Of a stretch of 64,000 nt of DNA, positions 735-6,189 are shown in pieces. The position numbers and the translations under genes are program-made. Source of the stretch: Oscillospiraceae bacterium (GTDB taxonomy: Bacteria > Bacillota > Clostridia > Oscillospirales > CAG-272); assembly GCA_015064805.1 (NCBI GenBank), contig SVRN01000009.1, forward strand, positions 2,614 through 66,613, given 5' to 3'. Under the pieces are notes generated by a model. It saw only the letters and a program-made list of their open reading frames with translations, searched no databases and had not been told where the DNA came from. Positions within the stretch are counted from its first letter, which is position 1; each line of letters starts with the position of its first letter.

Positions 735-1281
735 GATTGCGTAGCCGGACGCGCGTACAGCTTCGCGCCGCGCTGTGCCGGTTTTTTTATGCCACTTCTT
801 GGCGCGTCCCAAGAAGTGGCCAAGAAAGACGCCAAGACGTTCCCTCTTGGAACTCCCTTTCCGTGCCGCGCTACAAAGTGGAACAGGAGAAAGACATATA
901 ATTTTATTATACATCTCTCGTCATTTTGCCACCACGCGCGGCAGGAGGAGAAAATAAAATCGTTTTTGTTTGAAATTTTTTGATTATTGGGTGCGTTGCA
1001 GGGAGCAAAAAATTGTTGCTAACTTGCTTGCGTGTCACTTACGTGAGTGCGGCTTTTTTTAAGCCGCGCTCGCAAGCGCTGAACATAAAAGACTTCGCGC
1101 CACAATCAGAAAAACTTTAGTTTTTCGTGGCGCGTTGCGGGGTTCTAAGGGGTATTAGACCCCTTAGTCCTCTTTCTTGGTTCGTTCTTTCTCAAATGAG
1201 AAAGAATGAACATCAAACCCGCACAGCGCGGCGCGCAGCTGTACGCGCGTCTGTAGGAGAAACTGTATAAAATTTAGTTTT
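735..1281 (+). repeat. hairpin-mosaic element (HME) copy 1
   Basis: Inverted arms 747-781 and 1218-1251 match at 32 of 34 positions. Contains the C hairpin 791-820, the G block TTGCCACCACGCGCGGCAGG and the K hairpin CTAAGGGGTATTAGACCCCTTAG. Confidence 0.85.
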
Positions 1282-1774
1282 TCCTTCTAAAATACTTCAC
1301 CGCCGCAGGAATATACACGATCAGCGATCCGATCAGCCCTGCCAGCAGAACGGCAAACAGATGAACGAAGCTCTTTTCGCATATTGCCCGCCATGCGCCC
1401 AGCACCAGATACGCGGGAATGGTCATGATAACGTAGGTCAGCGGATGGTCGTGAAGCCGCTTGGCGGCAAGCGCTGCGTATACCGCGATGCCAAAGAAGA
1501 TAAGCGGCAAGAGTGATATACCAACGCCCGTCAGCGCGTCCAAAATCAAGCCGCCGACCATGCCGAGAATACCCCCGACGATGGGCCCGCGCTTCCAGCC
1601 GATCAGCAGTATCAAAGCCGCCGTCAACTCGACCGTCGCGCCAAAAACAGGGATATAGGACAAAAAGCTCGCTTGCAAAATAGCAAACAGCCAGACAAGC
1701 AAAACGAACAGCACCCAGCCAAGGGGCGTCGGCGGCTCGTGTGTCAGTCGATGATCTCGGATCTCATGATCCAT
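1274..1774 (-). CDS. mreD: rod shape-determining protein MreD-like membrane protein
   Basis: 166-aa polytopic hydrophobic ORF overlapping the mreC stop by 11 nt. The call rests on size, hydrophobicity and mreC linkage. Confidence 0.7.
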   Translation of the reverse strand: MDHEIRDHRLTHEPPTPLGWVLFVLLVWLFAILQASFLSYIPVFGATVELTAALILLIGWKRGPIVGGILGMVGGLILDALTGVGISLLPLIFFGIAVYAALAAKRLHDHPLTYVIMTIPAYLVLGAWRAICEKSFVHLFAVLLAGLIGSLIVYIPAAVKYFRRKN

Positions 1775-2696
1775 CGCCGCTCACCTCCCCGCTTGCCTGA
1801 TCGGAGTTTTTATCGTTTTGCTCGGTGTTGCCCGAGTCATCGTTTTCCGTTTCATTTTCATTTTTCTCGCCCGTGACGATCATCAGCGTCGCCGTCGAGG
1901 AGTAATCCGCGTACAGCCGTACGTACGCGTAGGGCGATCGATCGTACGAATCTACCCCAATCTCGACGATCTCACCGATGAGAAGACCGTGGGGATATTT
2001 TTCACCGTATCCGCTGGTCACGATCACGTCGCCGACCTGCAAGGCCGTTTGGTGATCCACGTTGGCGTCCAGATATTGCAGCTTGGCGTGCGTCTGACCC
2101 GCCTGAAGGCCGCACAGCGTACCGTTGATGCCCGAGCGAACGACCGTCGCGCCGATGAACAGCGTTTCTTCCTTGAGCGTCGTGACCTTGCAGGTCGAGG
2201 CGGAGACCTCACTGACCGTGCCGTACAGTCCTCCTGCGCTCAAGACGGGCATGCCAACGGCAATACCGTGGCGGCTTCCCTTGTTCAGCGTGACCGTCCG
2301 ACCCGATGGGTCGTTGTTGTAAATGATGCTCGCGTCAGTCAACGCAAGGGTGGGCTGCTTATCTTTCAGCTCGAGATATTCACGCAGCTGGTCGTTTTCT
2401 TGCTTCAGCTGTTCCAGCGCGGCGAGCTGTTCGCGCAGGGCGGCAAGCTCTTGATTGGCATCGTTGAGCTGTTGTTGTAATTTTTCATAATCGTCACCGC
2501 TTGCCAGCGCGTCGGAGGCGCTTTTTCCTGCCGCGCTGAACAATTTCGTCAGGGGGGAGGAGATGGTGGTGATGGTATTGCGGATGAAGTCCTTGGTGCT
2601 CGTGAGAGATAGGATGGTGGGGATGAGGCAAAGGAGCAGGGCAATGCAGGTGCAGAGGATCAATTGTTTTTTTAAGGATGGTTTTTTTCGACGCAT
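1764..2696 (-). CDS. mreC: rod shape-determining protein MreC
   Basis: N-terminal TM segment, a coiled coil (QQQLNDANQELAALREQLAALEQLKQENDQLREYLELK), then an MreC beta-domain (GMPVLSAGGLYGTVSEV...GDVIVTSGYGEKYPHGLLIGEIVEI). Start moved to ATG 2696 (MRRKKPSL) behind AAAGGAG. The longer ORF-track start lies in repeat DNA. Confidence 0.85.
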   Translation of the reverse strand: MRRKKPSLKKQLILCTCIALLLCLIPTILSLTSTKDFIRNTITTISSPLTKLFSAAGKSASDALASGDDYEKLQQQLNDANQELAALREQLAALEQLKQENDQLREYLELKDKQPTLALTDASIIYNNDPSGRTVTLNKGSRHGIAVGMPVLSAGGLYGTVSEVSASTCKVTTLKEETLFIGATVVRSGINGTLCGLQAGQTHAKLQYLDANVDHQTALQVGDVIVTSGYGEKYPHGLLIGEIVEIGVDSYDRSPYAYVRLYADYSSTATLMIVTGEKNENETENDDSGNTEQNDKNSDQASGEVSGDGS

Positions 2697-2730
2697 TGGA
2701 GCTCCTTTCTTTTTTATTTTGACGAGAATA

Positions 2731-3532: not shown

Positions 3533-5509
3533 TTAAATATCCAAATTCTCAGCAAACTTGGCGTTTTGCTCAATGAAGGCGCGGCGGGGCTCGACCTGGT
3601 CGCCCATGAGGAGCGAGAACATTTCGTCGCAGGCCATGGCGTCCTCGGCGGTGACCTTCAGAATGGTACGGGTGGTGGGATCCATGGTAGTTTCCCACAA
3701 CTGCTCAGCGTTCATCTCACCAAGACCCTTGTAGCGGTTGGTCTCGACGTTGACGCCACCCAGCTTTTCAATGCACTCGTCACGCTCGGCGTCCGAGAAA
3801 GCGTACAGTGCCTCGCCCTTGCCGTTCTTCTTTTGAACCTTATAAAGAGGCGGCTGTGCCAGATAGATATGACCGTCGTCGATCAGCTGGCGCATGTGAC
3901 GGAAGAAGAAAGTCAACAGCAGAATACGAATGTGCGAGCCGTCGACGTCAGCATCCGCCATGATGATGATCTTTCCGTAACGAAGCTTGGCAATGTCAAA
4001 TTCCTCGCCAATACCACAGCCCAGCGCCTGAATGATGGGCAGCAGGGACGGGTTGGAATAAACCTTGTCCAGTCTCGTCTTTTCGACGTTGAGAACCTTA
4101 CCGCGCAGAGGCAGAATTGCCTGGAAGCGCGAGTTACGTCCGCTTTTTGCGGAACCGCCTGCAGAGTCTCCCTCTACCAGATACAGCTCGGTCAGCTCGG
4201 TGTTCTTTTCCTGACAGTCAGCCAGCTTGCCGGGCAGCGTCGAGCCTTCAAGGAAGCCCTTGCGGCGCGTTGCCTCGCGTGCCTTTCTCGCCGCCTCACG
4301 GGCGCGGTTGGCCGCCAGCGATTTTTCAATGATATTCTTACCAACGGAAGGATTTTCTTCCAAATATTCAGCCAGCTTCTTGCAAACGAGGTTGTAAACG
4401 AATTGTCTCATCTCGCTGTTGCCCAGCTTGGTCTTGGTCTGACCCTCAAACTGTGCCTCGCGCAGCTTGACCGACACGACCGCCGTCAAGCCCTCGCGCA
4501 CGTCCTCACCCGACAGATTCTTGTCCGAATCCTTGAGCTGGCCGATCTTGCGGCCGTAGTCGTTGAGCACCTTGGTCAGCGCGGTCTTAAAGCCCACCTC
4601 GTGGGTACCGCCCTCCATGGTGTTGATGTCGTTGGCAAAGGTCAGGACGGACTCGTTGTAGGTGTCGTTGTACTGCAGCGCCACCTCGGCCACTCTCTCG
4701 TCCTCAACGGCGCGCATGTAGATAACGTCACCATGAAGGACCGTACAACCCTTCTGCTCGTTGATGTGCTCGACGAAGGAGCGGATACCGCCCTCGTAGT
4801 TGAGCACGTCCTCGCGGATATTTTCTTCGTCGCGCTCGTCGCGCAGCTTGATATAGATGCCCGCGTTGAGGAAGGCCTGCTCGCGCAGTCGCTTGAGCAG
4901 CGTTTCGTAATCAAAGAAGGTCGTCTCAAAAATGGTGCCGTCGGGCTTGAAGCGGACGTACAGACCGTGTGCGTCGGTCTCGCCCTCGCAATGGAAGGGA
5001 CGAGCCACCGCGCCGCGCTCAAATCGCTCGGTATAGCGCTGACCCTCGTAGCAGTTGTCGATCTCAACCCACTCGGAGAGCGCATTGACAACGGACGCGC
5101 CTACGCCGTGCAGACCGCCCGAAAATTTATAGCCCTCGCCGCCGAATTTACCGCCTGCGTGGAGCACGGTATAAACGACCTCCAGCGTGGGAATGCCCAT
5201 CTTGGGGTGAATACCGCTGGGAATGCCGTGACCGTCGTCCTGAACGCTGACGCTGCCGTCAGGGAGCAGAGTGACCTCGATCTGATTACAACGGCCTGCC
5301 ATGGCTTCGTCGATGGAGTTATCGACGATCTCGTAGACGAGGTGATGCAGACCGCGCTCGCTTGTTGAGCCGATATACATACCGGGACGTTTGCGAACGG
5401 CTTCCAGGCCTTCGAGGACTTGAATTTGATTTTCATCGTAATTCACGGTCTCGGGGGCGGTGTTTTCCTCCATGATTTCGTTTTGATTGACGATTTGATT
5501 GTCGGTCAT
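3533..5509 (-). CDS. gyrB: DNA gyrase subunit B
   Basis: [38 protein letters not shown] (GHKL ATPase), [15 protein letters not shown] and [11 protein letters not shown] (Toprim). Start set at ATG 5509 (MTDNQIV). Confidence 0.97.
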
Positions 5510-5550
5510 TGGGGTAACCTCACTTTTAGATGATGTTTTTATAGAGAGTG

Positions 5551-6189
5551 TTATTATTTTTTTAGCAACCGTTTCTACAGCCTCACACTGCACTTCGTGC
5601 GCGTTCGGTGTACCGGTTTTTTATGTTACTTCTTGGTACGCACCAAGAAGTAACCAAGAAATGCGCCCAGGCGTTCCCCCTGGGAACCCCCCGGCATTGC
5701 CGCTCTTCAAAGAGTAGCAGGAGAAAGACATAAGAACTTATTCTGCATCGCTCGCCGTTTTGCCACCACGAGCGGCAGGCAGAGAGAGCAAGAACGTTTT
5801 GCTTTCTTGGTAGGGGCTGGCGCCTCGACAGCCCGTTTTGGTGGCAGGCGCAGAAAACAAAATCGTTTTTGCTGAAAAGTTAGTTAAACCGGGGTGCGTC
5901 GCAGTTGGCAAAAACTTTTTTCTTTTATGCTTGCGTGCGTCTTTCATGTTGGCGTTTTTATTGAAAACGCCAACGCAAAAGCTGAAGATGCTCACTTTCG
6001 CGAAAAAATGAGTGGAGCGACAGCGGAACGACTTTTCGCGTTGCGAGTTTCCAAAGGGCATTAGGCCCTTTGGCGCGTTTCTTCCGCCACTTCTTGCCGC
6101 GTAGCAAGAAGTGGCATCAAACCCGCACAGCGCGGCGCGTCAGCTGTACGCGCGTCCGTAGGAGAAAATGTGGAAAAAAACAGCTAAAC
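5551..6189 (+). repeat. HME copy 3 (used here as the reference copy)
   Basis: Has all core modules in order, plus the REP-2 unit at 5810-5834. It ends exactly at the remB stop codon. Confidence 0.85.

What the first reader, a model, noticed from the sequence alone, without database searches (positions are those of the whole stretch)
791..5684. Compensatory stem substitutions between copies: hairpin structure, not sequence, is conserved
Several modules keep their loop and pairing while both stem strands change.

D module, loop CGTTCCC:
- CCAAGA/TCTTGG at 832-850
- CCCGGA/TCCGGG at 2856-2874
- CCCAGG/CCTGGG at 5666-5684

C module:
- GCCACTTCTTGG/CCAAGAAGTGGC at 791-820
- GTTCATTCTTTGCC/GGCAAAGAACGAAC at 2812-2843
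- GTTACTTCTTGG/CCAAGAAGTAAC at 5625-5654
- GCCTATTCTTTGC/GCAAAGAATAGGC at 24492-24523
- GTCCTTTTTGTC/GACAAAAAGGAC at 63648-63675

I module, A/T-rich loop:
- GTTGGCGTTTT/AAAACGCCAAC at 5948-5974
- GTTTGCAAGTT/AACTTGCAAAC at 24875-24901
- GCGTGGCTT/AAGCCGCGC at 21161-21185

K module: CCAAAGGGC, CTTAAGGGC, CTAAGGGGT and CCAAGGGGT stems around an ATTAG/CTAAT loop.

This pattern implies selection on folded ssDNA or RNA. It could also arise from a copying mechanism that regenerates palindromes.
Basis: seen in the sequence. Interest (0 to 1): 0.8.

Follow-up and report, generated by a model that had tools for sequence, protein, structure and literature searches.

The report
Structured modular repeats with pseudoknotted arms
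The covarying hairpins are real and are parts of a previously undescribed family of 340-850 bp non-coding repeats that fill about 13% of this stretch of an uncultured gut Clostridia chromosome and are under clear selection to fold as a single strand, pseudoknots included.

Summary
The C, D, I and K hairpins are modules of one interspersed, non-coding repeat. It has 13 copies in the window (8.4 kb, 13%) and more than 200 arms in about 0.8 Mb from at least 5 related uncultured Clostridia/Oscillospiraceae species.

Each element has two inverted arms of about 125-150 nt around a variable set of central hairpins. Each arm carries a terminal hairpin, a polypurine-polypyrimidine hairpin C, and hairpin K or D.

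In 38 right halves 99% of stem cells pair, and 28 of 47 pairs show double changes (0/500 shuffles).

New here:
- A covarying long-range helix.
- A pseudoknot in each arm: four bases next to K/D pair with the C loop in 132 of 154 arms (about 19 expected). This was replicated in 29 of 33 new arms.

These interleaved pairings cannot come from palindrome regeneration, so a folding requirement is shown. Variants are also shuffled between copies as blocks.

RNA versus single-stranded DNA is unresolved. The window encodes a RAYT (REP-associated HUH transposase) homologue and canonical GTAG REPs. This makes a REP/BIME-like, ssDNA-propagated and co-transcribed element my best guess.

There is no Rfam, plasmid or phage match. 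I rate it a new variant of a known kind.

The parts
716..1283 (+). Element E1 (complete; left arm with C and D, right arm with K and C)
   Evidence: Self-BLAST, alignment, ends
2728..3228 (+). Element E2 (complete, short centre)
5548..6188 (+). Element E3 (complete; contains the REP module and the I, J and K modules)
8814..9535 (+). Element E4 (complete; 75-nt extra module inside the right terminal hairpin). Absent or deleted at the orthologous site in L025
18981..19600 (+). Element E5 (right arm missing). Absent or reduced at the orthologous site in L009
20711..21480 (+). Element E6 (complete; extra module of about 85 nt between the linker and hairpin C)
24426..25120 (+). Element E7 (complete)
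30807..31657 (+). Element E8 (complete, longest)
32991..33659 (-). Element E9 (complete, inverted relative to E8)
44374..45153 (-). Element E10 (complete)
47430..47657 (+). Partial element E13 (right half only: J, K, C and the terminal hairpin)
58066..58856 (-). Element E11 (complete, with two optional modules)
63175..63742 (+). Element E12 (divergent centre; C stem CTTTTTG/CAAAAAG with linker TTTTTTC)
791..820 (.). Hairpin C of the E1 left arm. Its loop bases 805-808 (CGTC) pair with 828-831 (GACG): the pseudoknot
832..850 (.). Hairpin D of E1 (CCAAGA/TCTTGG, loop CGTTCCC)
   Evidence: helix 2
2812..2843 (.). Hairpin C of the E2 left arm. Bases 2827-2830 (CGCG) pair with 2852-2855 (CGCG)
2856..2874 (.). 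Hairpin D of E2 (CCCGGA/TCCGGG)
5625..5654 (.). Hairpin C of the E3 left arm. Bases 5639-5642 (CGCA) pair with 5662-5665 (TGCG)
5666..5684 (.). Hairpin D of E3 (CCCAGG/CCTGGG)
5698..5777 (+). H domain of E3, closed by the long-range helix 5698-5705 (TGCCGCTC) with 5770-5777 (GAGCGGCA)
   Evidence: helix 3
5810..5834 (+). Canonical GTAG-tagged REP module inside E3 (GTAG GGGCTG GCGCCTCGA CAGCCC). Also at 9088, 19365, 44757(-) and 58520(-)
5948..5974 (.). Hairpin I of E3
   Evidence: helix 1
6051..6073 (.). Hairpin K of E3 (CCAAAGGGC ATTAG GCCCTTTGG)
   Evidence: helix 5
6074..6115 (+). E3 right-arm pseudoknot unit: linker CGCG (6074-6077), pyrimidine linker TTTCTTCC, and hairpin C (6086-6115) whose loop bases 6098-6101 (CGCG) pair with the linker
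   Evidence: helices 6, 7
14759..15364 (+). RAYT (REP-associated tyrosine transposase) homologue. Candidate mobilising enzyme, not adjacent to any large element

Best explanation
The hairpins are modules of a new family of non-coding interspersed repeats, 340-850 bp long.

SHOWN
- Each element has two inverted arms. Reading outward, an arm carries hairpin K or D, a 4-nt linker, a pyrimidine linker TTTCTT, the polypurine-polypyrimidine hairpin C, terminal hairpin A, and a terminal sequence of about 35 nt ...CGTAGGAGAAGTTGTnnAAAATTTAG.
- Between the arms lies a variable set of central hairpin modules: H, M, an optional GTAG REP, I, J and others.
- Stems covary while loops and linkers are conserved.
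- Each arm forms a pseudoknot between the linker and the C loop.
- Pairing is maintained at orthologous sites across species.
- Hairpin variants are exchanged between copies as blocks.
- The elements sit in intergenic DNA, almost always downstream of at least one gene.

INFERRED
- The elements behave like an enlarged REP/BIME/REPIN system. The folded single strand is what is selected. Spread and module shuffling most likely occur on single-stranded DNA through an HUH (Y1) enzyme such as the RAYT homologue encoded in the window.
- Because the copies lie within or just beyond transcription units, they are also co-transcribed. As RNA their hairpins and pseudoknots could stabilise or delimit neighbouring mRNAs, which would explain long-term retention.
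- A pyrimidine-motif triple helix, with linker TTTCTT lying in the major groove of hairpin C, is possible but only weakly supported.

The confidence of 0.5 applies to the whole statement. The folding requirement and the element anatomy alone I hold at about 0.9. The HUH/ssDNA step I hold at about 0.4.
For: - Element anatomy and copy number. Coverage of the window is 13.1%.
- Covariation.
- Pseudoknot. Independent replication.
- Orthologous copies keep pairing. Orthologues carry different variants of the same hairpin.
- Location: 42 elements between co-directional genes, 10 between convergent genes, 2 between divergent genes. No strong orientation bias, 27 to 15.
- Symmetry: the conserved G-T wobble of hairpin C lies on the outward 5'->3' strand of both arms. 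This fits a process acting on both DNA ends rather than on one transcript.
- DNA-like loops: 54 of 103 terminal hairpins have 3-nt loops and 36 of 103 are C-GNA-G. That motif is known, from my own knowledge, as an unusually stable DNA mini-hairpin.
- RAYT homologue at 14759-15364: NCBIfam NF047646, E 3.8e-12. PDB 4ER8 TnpArep, E 4e-6, aligned over the HUH motif (NHIHIM) and the catalytic Tyr motif (YIYENP). Homologues occur in two further genomes.
- Canonical GTAG REPs are present 9 times against 0.2 expected, five of them inside the large elements.
- REP/BIME biology as described in PMC8266576 and PMC3733652 matches the location pattern and the structure-over-sequence conservation.
Against: - The large elements' own hairpins are not canonical REPs. 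Their GTAG lies 3' of the terminal hairpin on the strand where it reads GTAG, and only 69 of 134 distinct ends have GTAG at all (37 have AAAG).
- No arm flanks the RAYT gene in the window, L041 or L064, so there is no REPtron-type linkage.
- The RAYT scores below NCBIfam's curated cut-off (46 against 80 bits). It carries REP-derived in-frame insertions and may be inactive.
- No target-site duplication or clean empty site was found. The three 'empty' orthologous sites keep remnants of an element end and look like deletions.
- Pseudoknots, the long-range helix and a forward-strand excess of G-U in central hairpins are more typical of functional RNA. Hairpin M has 15 wobbles against 1 other; I/J has 16 G-T against 4 A-C.
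- The triple-helix idea has one supporting variant (E12) and at least one counter-example (L092). Mirror versus direct register is barely separated, 5.93 against 5.65.
Confidence: 0.5

Rival explanations
1. Purely RNA-level elements. The repeats are co-transcribed or self-transcribed structured RNAs that act as mRNA 3'/5' protectors, processing sites, insulators or weak terminators, or as small RNAs. The fold (hairpins, pseudoknot, possibly a U-A-U/C+-G-C triplex) is selected in RNA. The DNA-level symmetry is only a legacy of how the element spread.
For: - Pseudoknot and long-range helix with covariation.
- One-sided changes are nearly always G-U, with a forward-strand excess in M, I and J.
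- 52 of 54 elements lie downstream of at least one gene.
- K/D hairpins followed by a U-rich tract are scored as terminator-like, facing outward from both arms.
- Pairing is kept in place across species.
- REPs are thought to act as RNA elements (PMC3733652).
- Major-groove triplex pseudoknots are known RNA folds (PMC7583470).
Against: - No orientation preference strong enough for a strand-specific RNA (27 to 15).
- The left arm carries A-C mismatches on the strand where the centre and right arm carry G-U.
- No convincing conserved promoter was found.
- Four bases separate the K stem from the U tract, which is poor for intrinsic termination.
- Many 3-nt GNA loops.
- No Rfam family matches, even at E up to 5.
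Confidence: 0.3
2. Ordinary MITEs derived from a DDE insertion sequence. The inverted arms are transposase-binding terminal repeats. The internal hairpins persist only because transposition-competent master copies keep generating intact daughters.
For: - Long terminal inverted repeats, non-coding, intergenic, many copies, size classes of about 360/450/520-800 bp consistent with deletion derivatives.
- General MITE properties as in PMC10969869.
Against: - No target-site duplication visible.
- No transposase between any pair of inverted ends in about 0.8 Mb. The single 2.6-kb pair encloses NUDIX, DUF1934 and AP-endonuclease-type genes.
- Central modules that a transposase would not need also covary.
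- Old orthologous copies are not decayed.
- The left and right ends of one element often belong to different sequence types.
- No similarity to plasmids or phages.
Confidence: 0.12
3. No folding requirement. Palindromes are regenerated or homogenised by a copying or gene-conversion process, or are symmetric binding sites for dimeric double-stranded-DNA-binding proteins.
For: - Hairpin variants are shared between copies and species and are swapped as blocks.
- The arms are inverted copies of each other down to a conserved wobble.
Against: - The interleaved (non-palindromic) linker-loop complementarity with at least 15 variants.
- The covarying helix 70 nt apart.
- Conserved G-T wobbles and wobble-only intermediates.
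- 24 stem haplotypes of one hairpin in 38 copies would need as many protein specificities.
Confidence: 0.03

Closest known systems
REP / BIME / REPIN elements with their RAYT (TnpA-REP) HUH transposase
   Same: - High-copy intergenic palindromic repeats, mostly between co-directional and convergent genes.
- Units in inverted pairs that can fold into larger structures.
- Mosaic combinations with other motifs.
- Structure conserved more than sequence; vertical persistence at fixed sites.
- A single-copy RAYT homologue and canonical GTAG REPs are present in this window (PMC8266576, PMC3733652).
   Different: - Elements are 340-850 bp rather than 20-50 nt (REP) or about 100 nt (REPIN).
- The main hairpins lack a 5' GTAG tag.
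- Arms carry pseudoknots and a purine/pyrimidine hairpin.
- There are many optional central modules.
- The RAYT gene is not flanked by the arms.
- The lineage is Clostridia, whereas described systems are mostly Proteobacteria.
Bacterial MITEs and modular repeats (Neisseria Correia elements, ERIC, pneumococcal BOX A-B-C, RUP, SPRITE)
   Same: - Non-coding, with inverted ends.
- Stable stem-loops when transcribed.
- Intergenic, with insertion into one another.
- Modular build in BOX (PMC10969869; BOX modularity from my own knowledge).
   Different: - No target-site duplication and no parent IS found.
- Not AT-rich.
- Much larger, with extensive covariation, a pseudoknot and a long-range helix.
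- No sequence similarity to any of them was detectable (plasmid/phage/Rfam searches were negative; direct comparison with those elements was not run).
IS200/IS605 ends and their 4-nt guide/cleavage-site pairing
   Same: Single-strand hairpins recognised by a Y1 HUH enzyme. A tetranucleotide 5' of the hairpin base-pairs with another tetranucleotide (PMC8266576 introduction). The linker-loop 4-bp pairing here is formally similar.
   Different: IS200/IS605 ends are not inverted repeats and act on one strand. Here the partner tetranucleotide is inside the hairpin loop, and no IS200/IS605 transposase or TnpB is associated.
H-type RNA pseudoknots with major-groove triple helices (telomerase RNA, SAM-II/preQ1-II riboswitches, ENE elements, type III antitoxin RNAs)
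   Same: Order of strands (linker, pyrimidine loop, pyrimidine arm, loop partner, purine arm). The loop lies parallel to the purine strand and matches it by T-A/C-G rules over 5-8 positions (PMC7583470).
   Different: No sequence or Rfam relationship. The triplex is not demonstrated. The stem is 12-14 bp, far longer than in those RNAs. The elements are dispersed repeats present in both orientations.

Membership tests
MITE | Terminal inverted repeats | tested here: met
   Ends align as inverted repeats over about 125-150 nt, including hairpins A, C and K.
MITE | Target-site duplication (direct repeats) flanking the element | tested here: inconclusive
   No consistent direct repeat in 80 flank pairs. 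The outermost bases (TTTAG/CTAAA) are themselves palindromic, and no clean empty site was available.
MITE | Related autonomous IS with the same ends | tested here: not met
   None found in the window plus 131 loci. The only inverted end pair more than 1 kb apart encloses non-transposase genes. Whole genomes could not be scanned.
MITE | Small, non-coding, AT-rich | tested here: inconclusive
   Non-coding and 340-850 bp. By reading the sequences, composition looks close to the window's 46-61% G+C; element G+C was not computed.
REP (repetitive extragenic palindrome) | 20-50 nt palindrome preceded (5') by a conserved tetranucleotide, usually GTAG | tested here: not met
   For hairpins C, D, I, K and A there is no 5' GTAG. 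The terminal GTAG lies 3' of hairpin A and is present in only 69 of 134 ends. The optional module GTAGGGGCTGGCGCCTCGACAGCCC does meet it.
REP/REPIN-RAYT system | RAYT (TnpA-REP) gene in the genome with HUH and catalytic Tyr | tested here: met
   Window 14759-15364: NF047646 at E 3.8e-12 (46 bits, below the 80-bit cut-off); PDB 4ER8 at E 4e-6; motifs NHIHIM and YIYENP.
REP/REPIN-RAYT system | RAYT gene flanked by its cognate repeats (REPtron) | tested here: inconclusive
   No large-element arm lies near the gene. However, GTAG REP copies lie inside the ORF (14891; array at 15060-15163), and a CTAC-tagged hairpin lies about 100 nt downstream.
REP/REPIN-RAYT system | RAYT cleaves or joins the repeat as single-stranded DNA | not testable with these tools
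   Needs the cleavage/strand-transfer assay of PMC8266576.
BIME | REP and inverted REP separated by linkers, in mosaic or tandem combinations | tested here: inconclusive
   There is a mosaic of inverted arms plus optional modules including a true REP, but the repeated units are not REPs.
Any Rfam RNA family | Covariance-model match at the gathering score | tested here: not met
   0 hits in 64 kb. Only chance-level hits at E up to 5 in 700-6250.
IS200/IS605-derived PATE | Different left and right subterminal hairpins on one strand, no inverted ends | tested here: not met
   The arms are inverted copies of each other.

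The most novel reading that the evidence does not exclude
These are a new class of large (0.35-0.85 kb) ornate structured nucleic-acid elements. Their inverted arms fold into pseudoknots with a purine-pyrimidine triple helix. 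They have colonised roughly a tenth of the genome of a gut Clostridia lineage and are maintained by host-level selection. Possible roles are exonuclease-resistant RNA caps or insulators for neighbouring genes, or ssDNA substrates of a domesticated HUH enzyme that assembles hairpin modules into mosaics. Neither role would fit the REP, MITE or known non-coding RNA categories.
Probability: 0.25. Interest if true: 0.9.

Novelty: new variant of a known kind. Interest (0 to 1): 0.72.

Why it matters
Interspersed bacterial repeats (REP, BIME, REPIN, MITE) are usually short, and their structural constraint is limited to one hairpin. Three things make this family different.

- **Structural constraint.** It has a dozen covarying helices, an intra-arm pseudoknot and a long-range helix. 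That is the kind of evidence normally reserved for ribozymes and riboswitches, here in a dispersed element that occupies about 13% of the sampled DNA.
- **A testable question.** It makes an old question directly addressable: whether such repeats are kept for the host (RNA stability, insulation, DNA topology) or only for their own spread. Each arm offers a clean compensatory-mutation design (linker against loop), and a candidate enzyme (RAYT) sits in the same window.
- **A practical point.** It warns that MAGs of this clade break at these repeats.

Tried and rejected
- **Rfam.** Searches at gathering score and at E up to 5 found nothing relevant.
- **Plasmids, phages, viral contigs.** BLAST of an element against plasmid and phage collections gave no match. 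The single viral-contig hit (L084) is an ordinary bacterial contig with one element at its end.
- **Autonomous copy.** Looking for inverted ends enclosing a transposase found only a 2.6-kb pair enclosing housekeeping-type genes.
- **Target-site duplications and empty sites.** None convincing. The 'empty' orthologous sites retain end remnants.
- **Promoter in the conserved ends or the H domain.** No consistent -35/-10 (and inspection).
- **K/D hairpin as an intrinsic terminator.** Scored as terminator-like but spaced 4 nt from an interrupted T tract, and it would exclude hairpin C from the transcript. Judged unlikely.
- **Strand assignment from G-T against A-C counts.** In the arms the signal is dominated by one inherited wobble that is symmetric in both arms. 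In the centre there is only a modest forward excess.
- **Orientation relative to genes.** A first crude gene call gave 21 to 16. A codon-scored call gave 27 to 15, which is not decisive.
- **GC-skew switch near 32 kb.** Considered as a replication signal. It follows gene strand instead.
- **Naive all-against-all covariation scan.** Too noisy because G-T was allowed.
- **Pfam on the RAYT ORF.** Nothing at E of 0.01 or below. NCBIfam and PDB were needed.
- **Triple helix.** Kept only as a weak hypothesis (counter-example).

Full report
**Context**

The window is a bacterial chromosome segment around dnaA (10338-11738, - strand), dnaN, recF, gyrB, mreCD and gyrA. It carries no tRNA genes and no Rfam family at gathering score. 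Identical DNA occurs in several metagenomes (L001-L006, 100% identity). A pattern from hairpin K found related DNA only in five uncultured MAG species labelled Eubacteriales, Clostridia or Oscillospiraceae. One of them (JAZLDE01) is syntenic with the window at about 88-93% identity. Two others (JAFVZV01, JAZQUX01) are syntenic at about 76-87%.

**What the hairpins belong to**

Aligned in one orientation, these blocks are one modular element. Together they cover 8.4 kb, 13.1% of the window.

Each complete copy has two inverted arms. Reading outward, an arm contains:
- hairpin K (GGGC ATTAG GCCC core) or, in its place, hairpin D (loop CGTTCCC);
- four variable bases, here called N4;
- a pyrimidine linker, (C/T)TTTCTT(G/C)(G/C);
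- hairpin C, whose 5' arm is pyrimidine-rich (TTCTT core) and whose 3' arm is purine-rich;
- a short spacer and terminal hairpin A;
- the end sequence ...C(GTAG/AAAG)GAGAA GTTGTnnAAAATTTAG.

Between the arms lie the H domain, a small hairpin M, and optional modules. The optional modules include a GTAG-tagged REP, hairpins I and J, and extra hairpin clusters inserted in the loop of A or between N4 and the linker.

In the window plus 77 genome loci I found 82 pairs of inverted ends. Lengths cluster at 338-373 bp (the minimal form), about 440 bp, and 510-800 bp. In total 240 arm matches were found.

**The covariation is real**

On 38 right halves (A1), RNAalifold predicts hairpins I, K and C and a J domain. 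28 of 47 pairs keep pairing through changes on both sides. The pair-counting tool gives 99.0% paired cells. No shuffle out of 500 reached the observed percentage paired, number of double-change pairs, number of double-change cells or covariation score; the count of further pair types was reached by 14 of 500. Pairing collapses to 32-57% when partners are slid. On 31 minimal elements (A2) the figures are 98.1% paired and 23 of 46 pairs with double changes. Hairpin I has 24 distinct stem haplotypes in 38 copies. One element folds 5-6.6 standard deviations better than shuffles on either strand, as RNA or as DNA.

**Two features that palindrome regeneration cannot produce**

- *Long-range helix.* The H domain is closed by an 8-bp helix whose strands are about 70 nt apart (TGCCGC[G/T]C with G[C/A]GCGGCA). 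Its variable position covaries: T-A in 26 copies and G-C in 4 within A2, and A-T pairs appear in further copies.
- *Pseudoknot in each arm.* N4 is complementary to four bases of the loop of hairpin C in the same arm. This pairing is interleaved with the C stem.
  - In a string test that uses no alignment, 132 of 154 arms contain the exact reverse complement of N4 in the loop. Shuffling N4 among arms gives a mean of 18.9 and a maximum of 35 in 2000 trials.
  - Fifteen different N4 tetramers have matching loops.
  - The signal peaks at the exact offset: 132 at offset 0, 48 and 19 at offsets -1 and +1, and about 0 beyond.
  - On A2 the four pseudoknot pairs of the right arm are 99.2% paired, and all four show double changes in 7-16 sequences.
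  - The two arms of one element carry unrelated N4/loop pairs, so the constraint acts within each arm.
  - I then tested the prediction on 48 metagenome loci fetched afterwards. 29 of 33 arm sequences not seen before obey it (5.8 expected), including a new tetramer.

**Possible triple helix**

The pyrimidine linker runs from the loop end to the base of hairpin C, parallel to the purine arm. It matches the purine arm by T-A and C-G rules over 5-8 consecutive positions, always starting 1-2 nt from the loop. Its length tracks the purine tract: AAGAA with TTCTT, AAAGAA with TTTCTT, AAAGAAAG with TTTCTTTC, and in E12 AAAAAG with TTTTTC. A permutation test is significant (0 of 2000). But the tract is nearly mirror-symmetric, so parallel and antiparallel registers differ little (5.93 against 5.65). 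At least one arm breaks the rule (L092). I therefore treat a major-groove triplex as possible, not shown. The same linker can alternatively pair with CCAAGAAA of the opposite arm, as in the minimum-energy folds.

**How the copies evolve**

Elements occupy the same intergenic sites in species 8-24% diverged. Between such orthologous copies, unpaired columns differ by 18-35%. Differences in paired columns almost always preserve pairing:
- the E6 orthologues in L009 and L031 show 13 double changes, 3 wobbles and 0 broken pairs;
- E3 against L025 shows 8, 0 and 1.

Many of these differences are whole-hairpin replacements by variants that are common elsewhere. Examples are hairpin I of E3 against L025, and E5 against L081. 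The left and right ends of one element are often of different sequence types. So variants are shuffled among copies, and pairing is maintained at each locus.

Three sites occupied in the window (E4, E5, E7) lack the element in another species. However, two of them (E4, E5) still carry about 10-20 nt of an element end, which points to deletion rather than to a pristine target. No target-site duplication is visible.

**Position and strand**

Using codon-scored gene calls, 42 elements lie between co-directional genes, 10 between convergent genes and only 2 between divergent genes. Orientation relative to co-directional neighbours is 27 antisense to 15 sense, which is not decisive.

The strand evidence is mixed:
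- Hairpin M departs from Watson-Crick only by G-U on the forward strand (15 wobbles, 1 other).
- I/J show 16 G-T against 4 A-C in pairs common to both strands.
- The conserved G-T wobble of hairpin C (GTTCGTTC/GAATGAAC) lies on the outward 5'->3' strand of both arms, so on any one strand one arm carries an A-C mismatch.
- Terminal hairpins favour 3-nt loops (54 of 103) and C-GNA-G (36 of 103). From my own knowledge this motif is a hallmark of very stable DNA mini-hairpins.
- K/D followed by N4 and a T-rich tract is flagged as terminator-like, facing outward on both arms. The spacing is poor for termination.

**A candidate enzyme**

Scanning ORFs for HUH and Tyr motifs revealed a RAYT homologue in the window at 14759-15364.
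- It matches NCBIfam NF047646 'REP-associated tyrosine transposase' at E 3.8e-12. The score of 46 bits is below the 80-bit cut-off.
- It matches the E. coli TnpA-REP structure 4ER8 at E 4e-6. The alignment covers VIMPNHIHIMLW/VVLPEHMHCIW and HLRYIYENP/HVDYIYINP.
- Homologues occur in L064 (62% identity) and L041 (36% identity).

Canonical GTAG REPs (GTAG GGNNNG ...loop... CNNNCC) occur 9 times in the window against 0.2 expected. Five are the optional module inside E3, E4, E5, E10 and E11. Two lie inside the RAYT ORF. Two form an inverted pair at 60508 and 61283.

According to the literature read here, REPs are 20-50 nt palindromes preceded by GTAG. They are often arranged as inverted pairs and mosaics (BIMEs) and are located between co-directional and convergent genes. 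They are processed as single strands by a single-copy, domesticated HUH enzyme. The related IS200/IS605 enzymes choose cleavage sites by 4-nt DNA-DNA pairing next to a hairpin (PMC8266576; PMC3733652).

The large elements share the lifestyle but fail the REP definition:
- their main hairpins have no 5' GTAG;
- the terminal GTAG is on the wrong side of hairpin A and is present in about half of the ends;
- no arm flanks the RAYT gene.

**Verdict**

It is also shown that they are modules of a large, abundant repeat with inverted arms, confined so far to one uncultured Clostridia clade.

It is inferred, at about even odds, that the family is an enlarged REP/BIME-like system: spread and reshuffled as single-stranded DNA by an HUH enzyme, and tolerated or exploited as co-transcribed RNA structure. 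A purely RNA-level role is the main rival.

No family in Rfam, the plasmid and phage collections, or the MITE and REP papers I read describes it.

Noticed in passing
window 14759-15364 (+), with 14891-14916 and 15060-15163: The RAYT homologue carries its own kind of repeat in frame. A GTAG REP encodes ...IVGTGVPDGP.... A 27-nt unit in 3.9 tandem copies (97% matches), which is the inverted REP, encodes GPSRTPVTD x4 between the HUH motif and the catalytic-Tyr region. The homologue in L064 has a single SRTPVPT.
   Followed up: partly
window 60508-61283: An inverted pair of GTAG REPs (GTAGGGACCGGCGTCC...) brackets a segment of about 750 bp. The segment holds an ORF with no family match (60606-61016, - strand). 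It also holds two hairpins (CCCCGACAGA..., GATCGGCAGAG...) that resemble those flanking the RAYT gene. It looks like a REPtron-type cassette with a different cargo.
   Followed up: partly
window 3246-3529 and 10077-10331; at least 40 copies in the loci (alignment A3): A second repeat family ('X', about 230-300 nt) starts with the 3' half of the H domain and ends in a GGGGAAC-TTTTTT/AAAAAG-GTTCCCC hairpin. An upstream GTT[T/C]TTG tract covaries three ways with both arms of that hairpin (T/T/A against C/C/G). This is compatible with an alternative helix or a triplex. No Rfam match.
   Followed up: partly
window 9560-10040: A cluster of DnaA-box-like TGTGGA(A/T)AA repeats lies between dnaN and dnaA, including a 21-nt tandem repeat at 10000-10041. 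This is a likely oriC. It is sandwiched between element E4 and an X repeat.
   Followed up: no
window 30807-33659 versus L079 4287-5103: The CCA-adding enzyme/poly(A) polymerase-type gene (31617-32987, + strand) sits between two elements in opposite orientation (E8, E9). The syntenic site in JAZQUX01 has element sequence only and no such gene. This suggests a rearrangement or insertion associated with the elements.
   Followed up: partly
window 55927-56878 (inside ORF 54572-58006): A large ORF of 1144 aa contains about three tandem copies of a 309-nt coding repeat (83-86% identity).
   Followed up: no
whole window: The sign of the GC skew follows gene strand: the coding strand is C-rich on both sides of the strand switch near 32-41 kb. 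It does not mark the replication origin next to dnaA.
   Followed up: partly
L084 (IMGVR_UViG_3300022661_002443): A contig filed as viral carries a complete element at its 5' end, followed by ORFs that I did not annotate; nothing seen marks it as phage. It may be a bacterial fragment rather than a phage.
   Followed up: partly
loci of JAZLDE01 (e.g. L014, L018, L036, L065, L070): MAG contigs of the sister species start or end inside the elements. These repeats therefore fragment short-read assemblies of this clade, and copy numbers from MAGs are underestimates.
   Followed up: no
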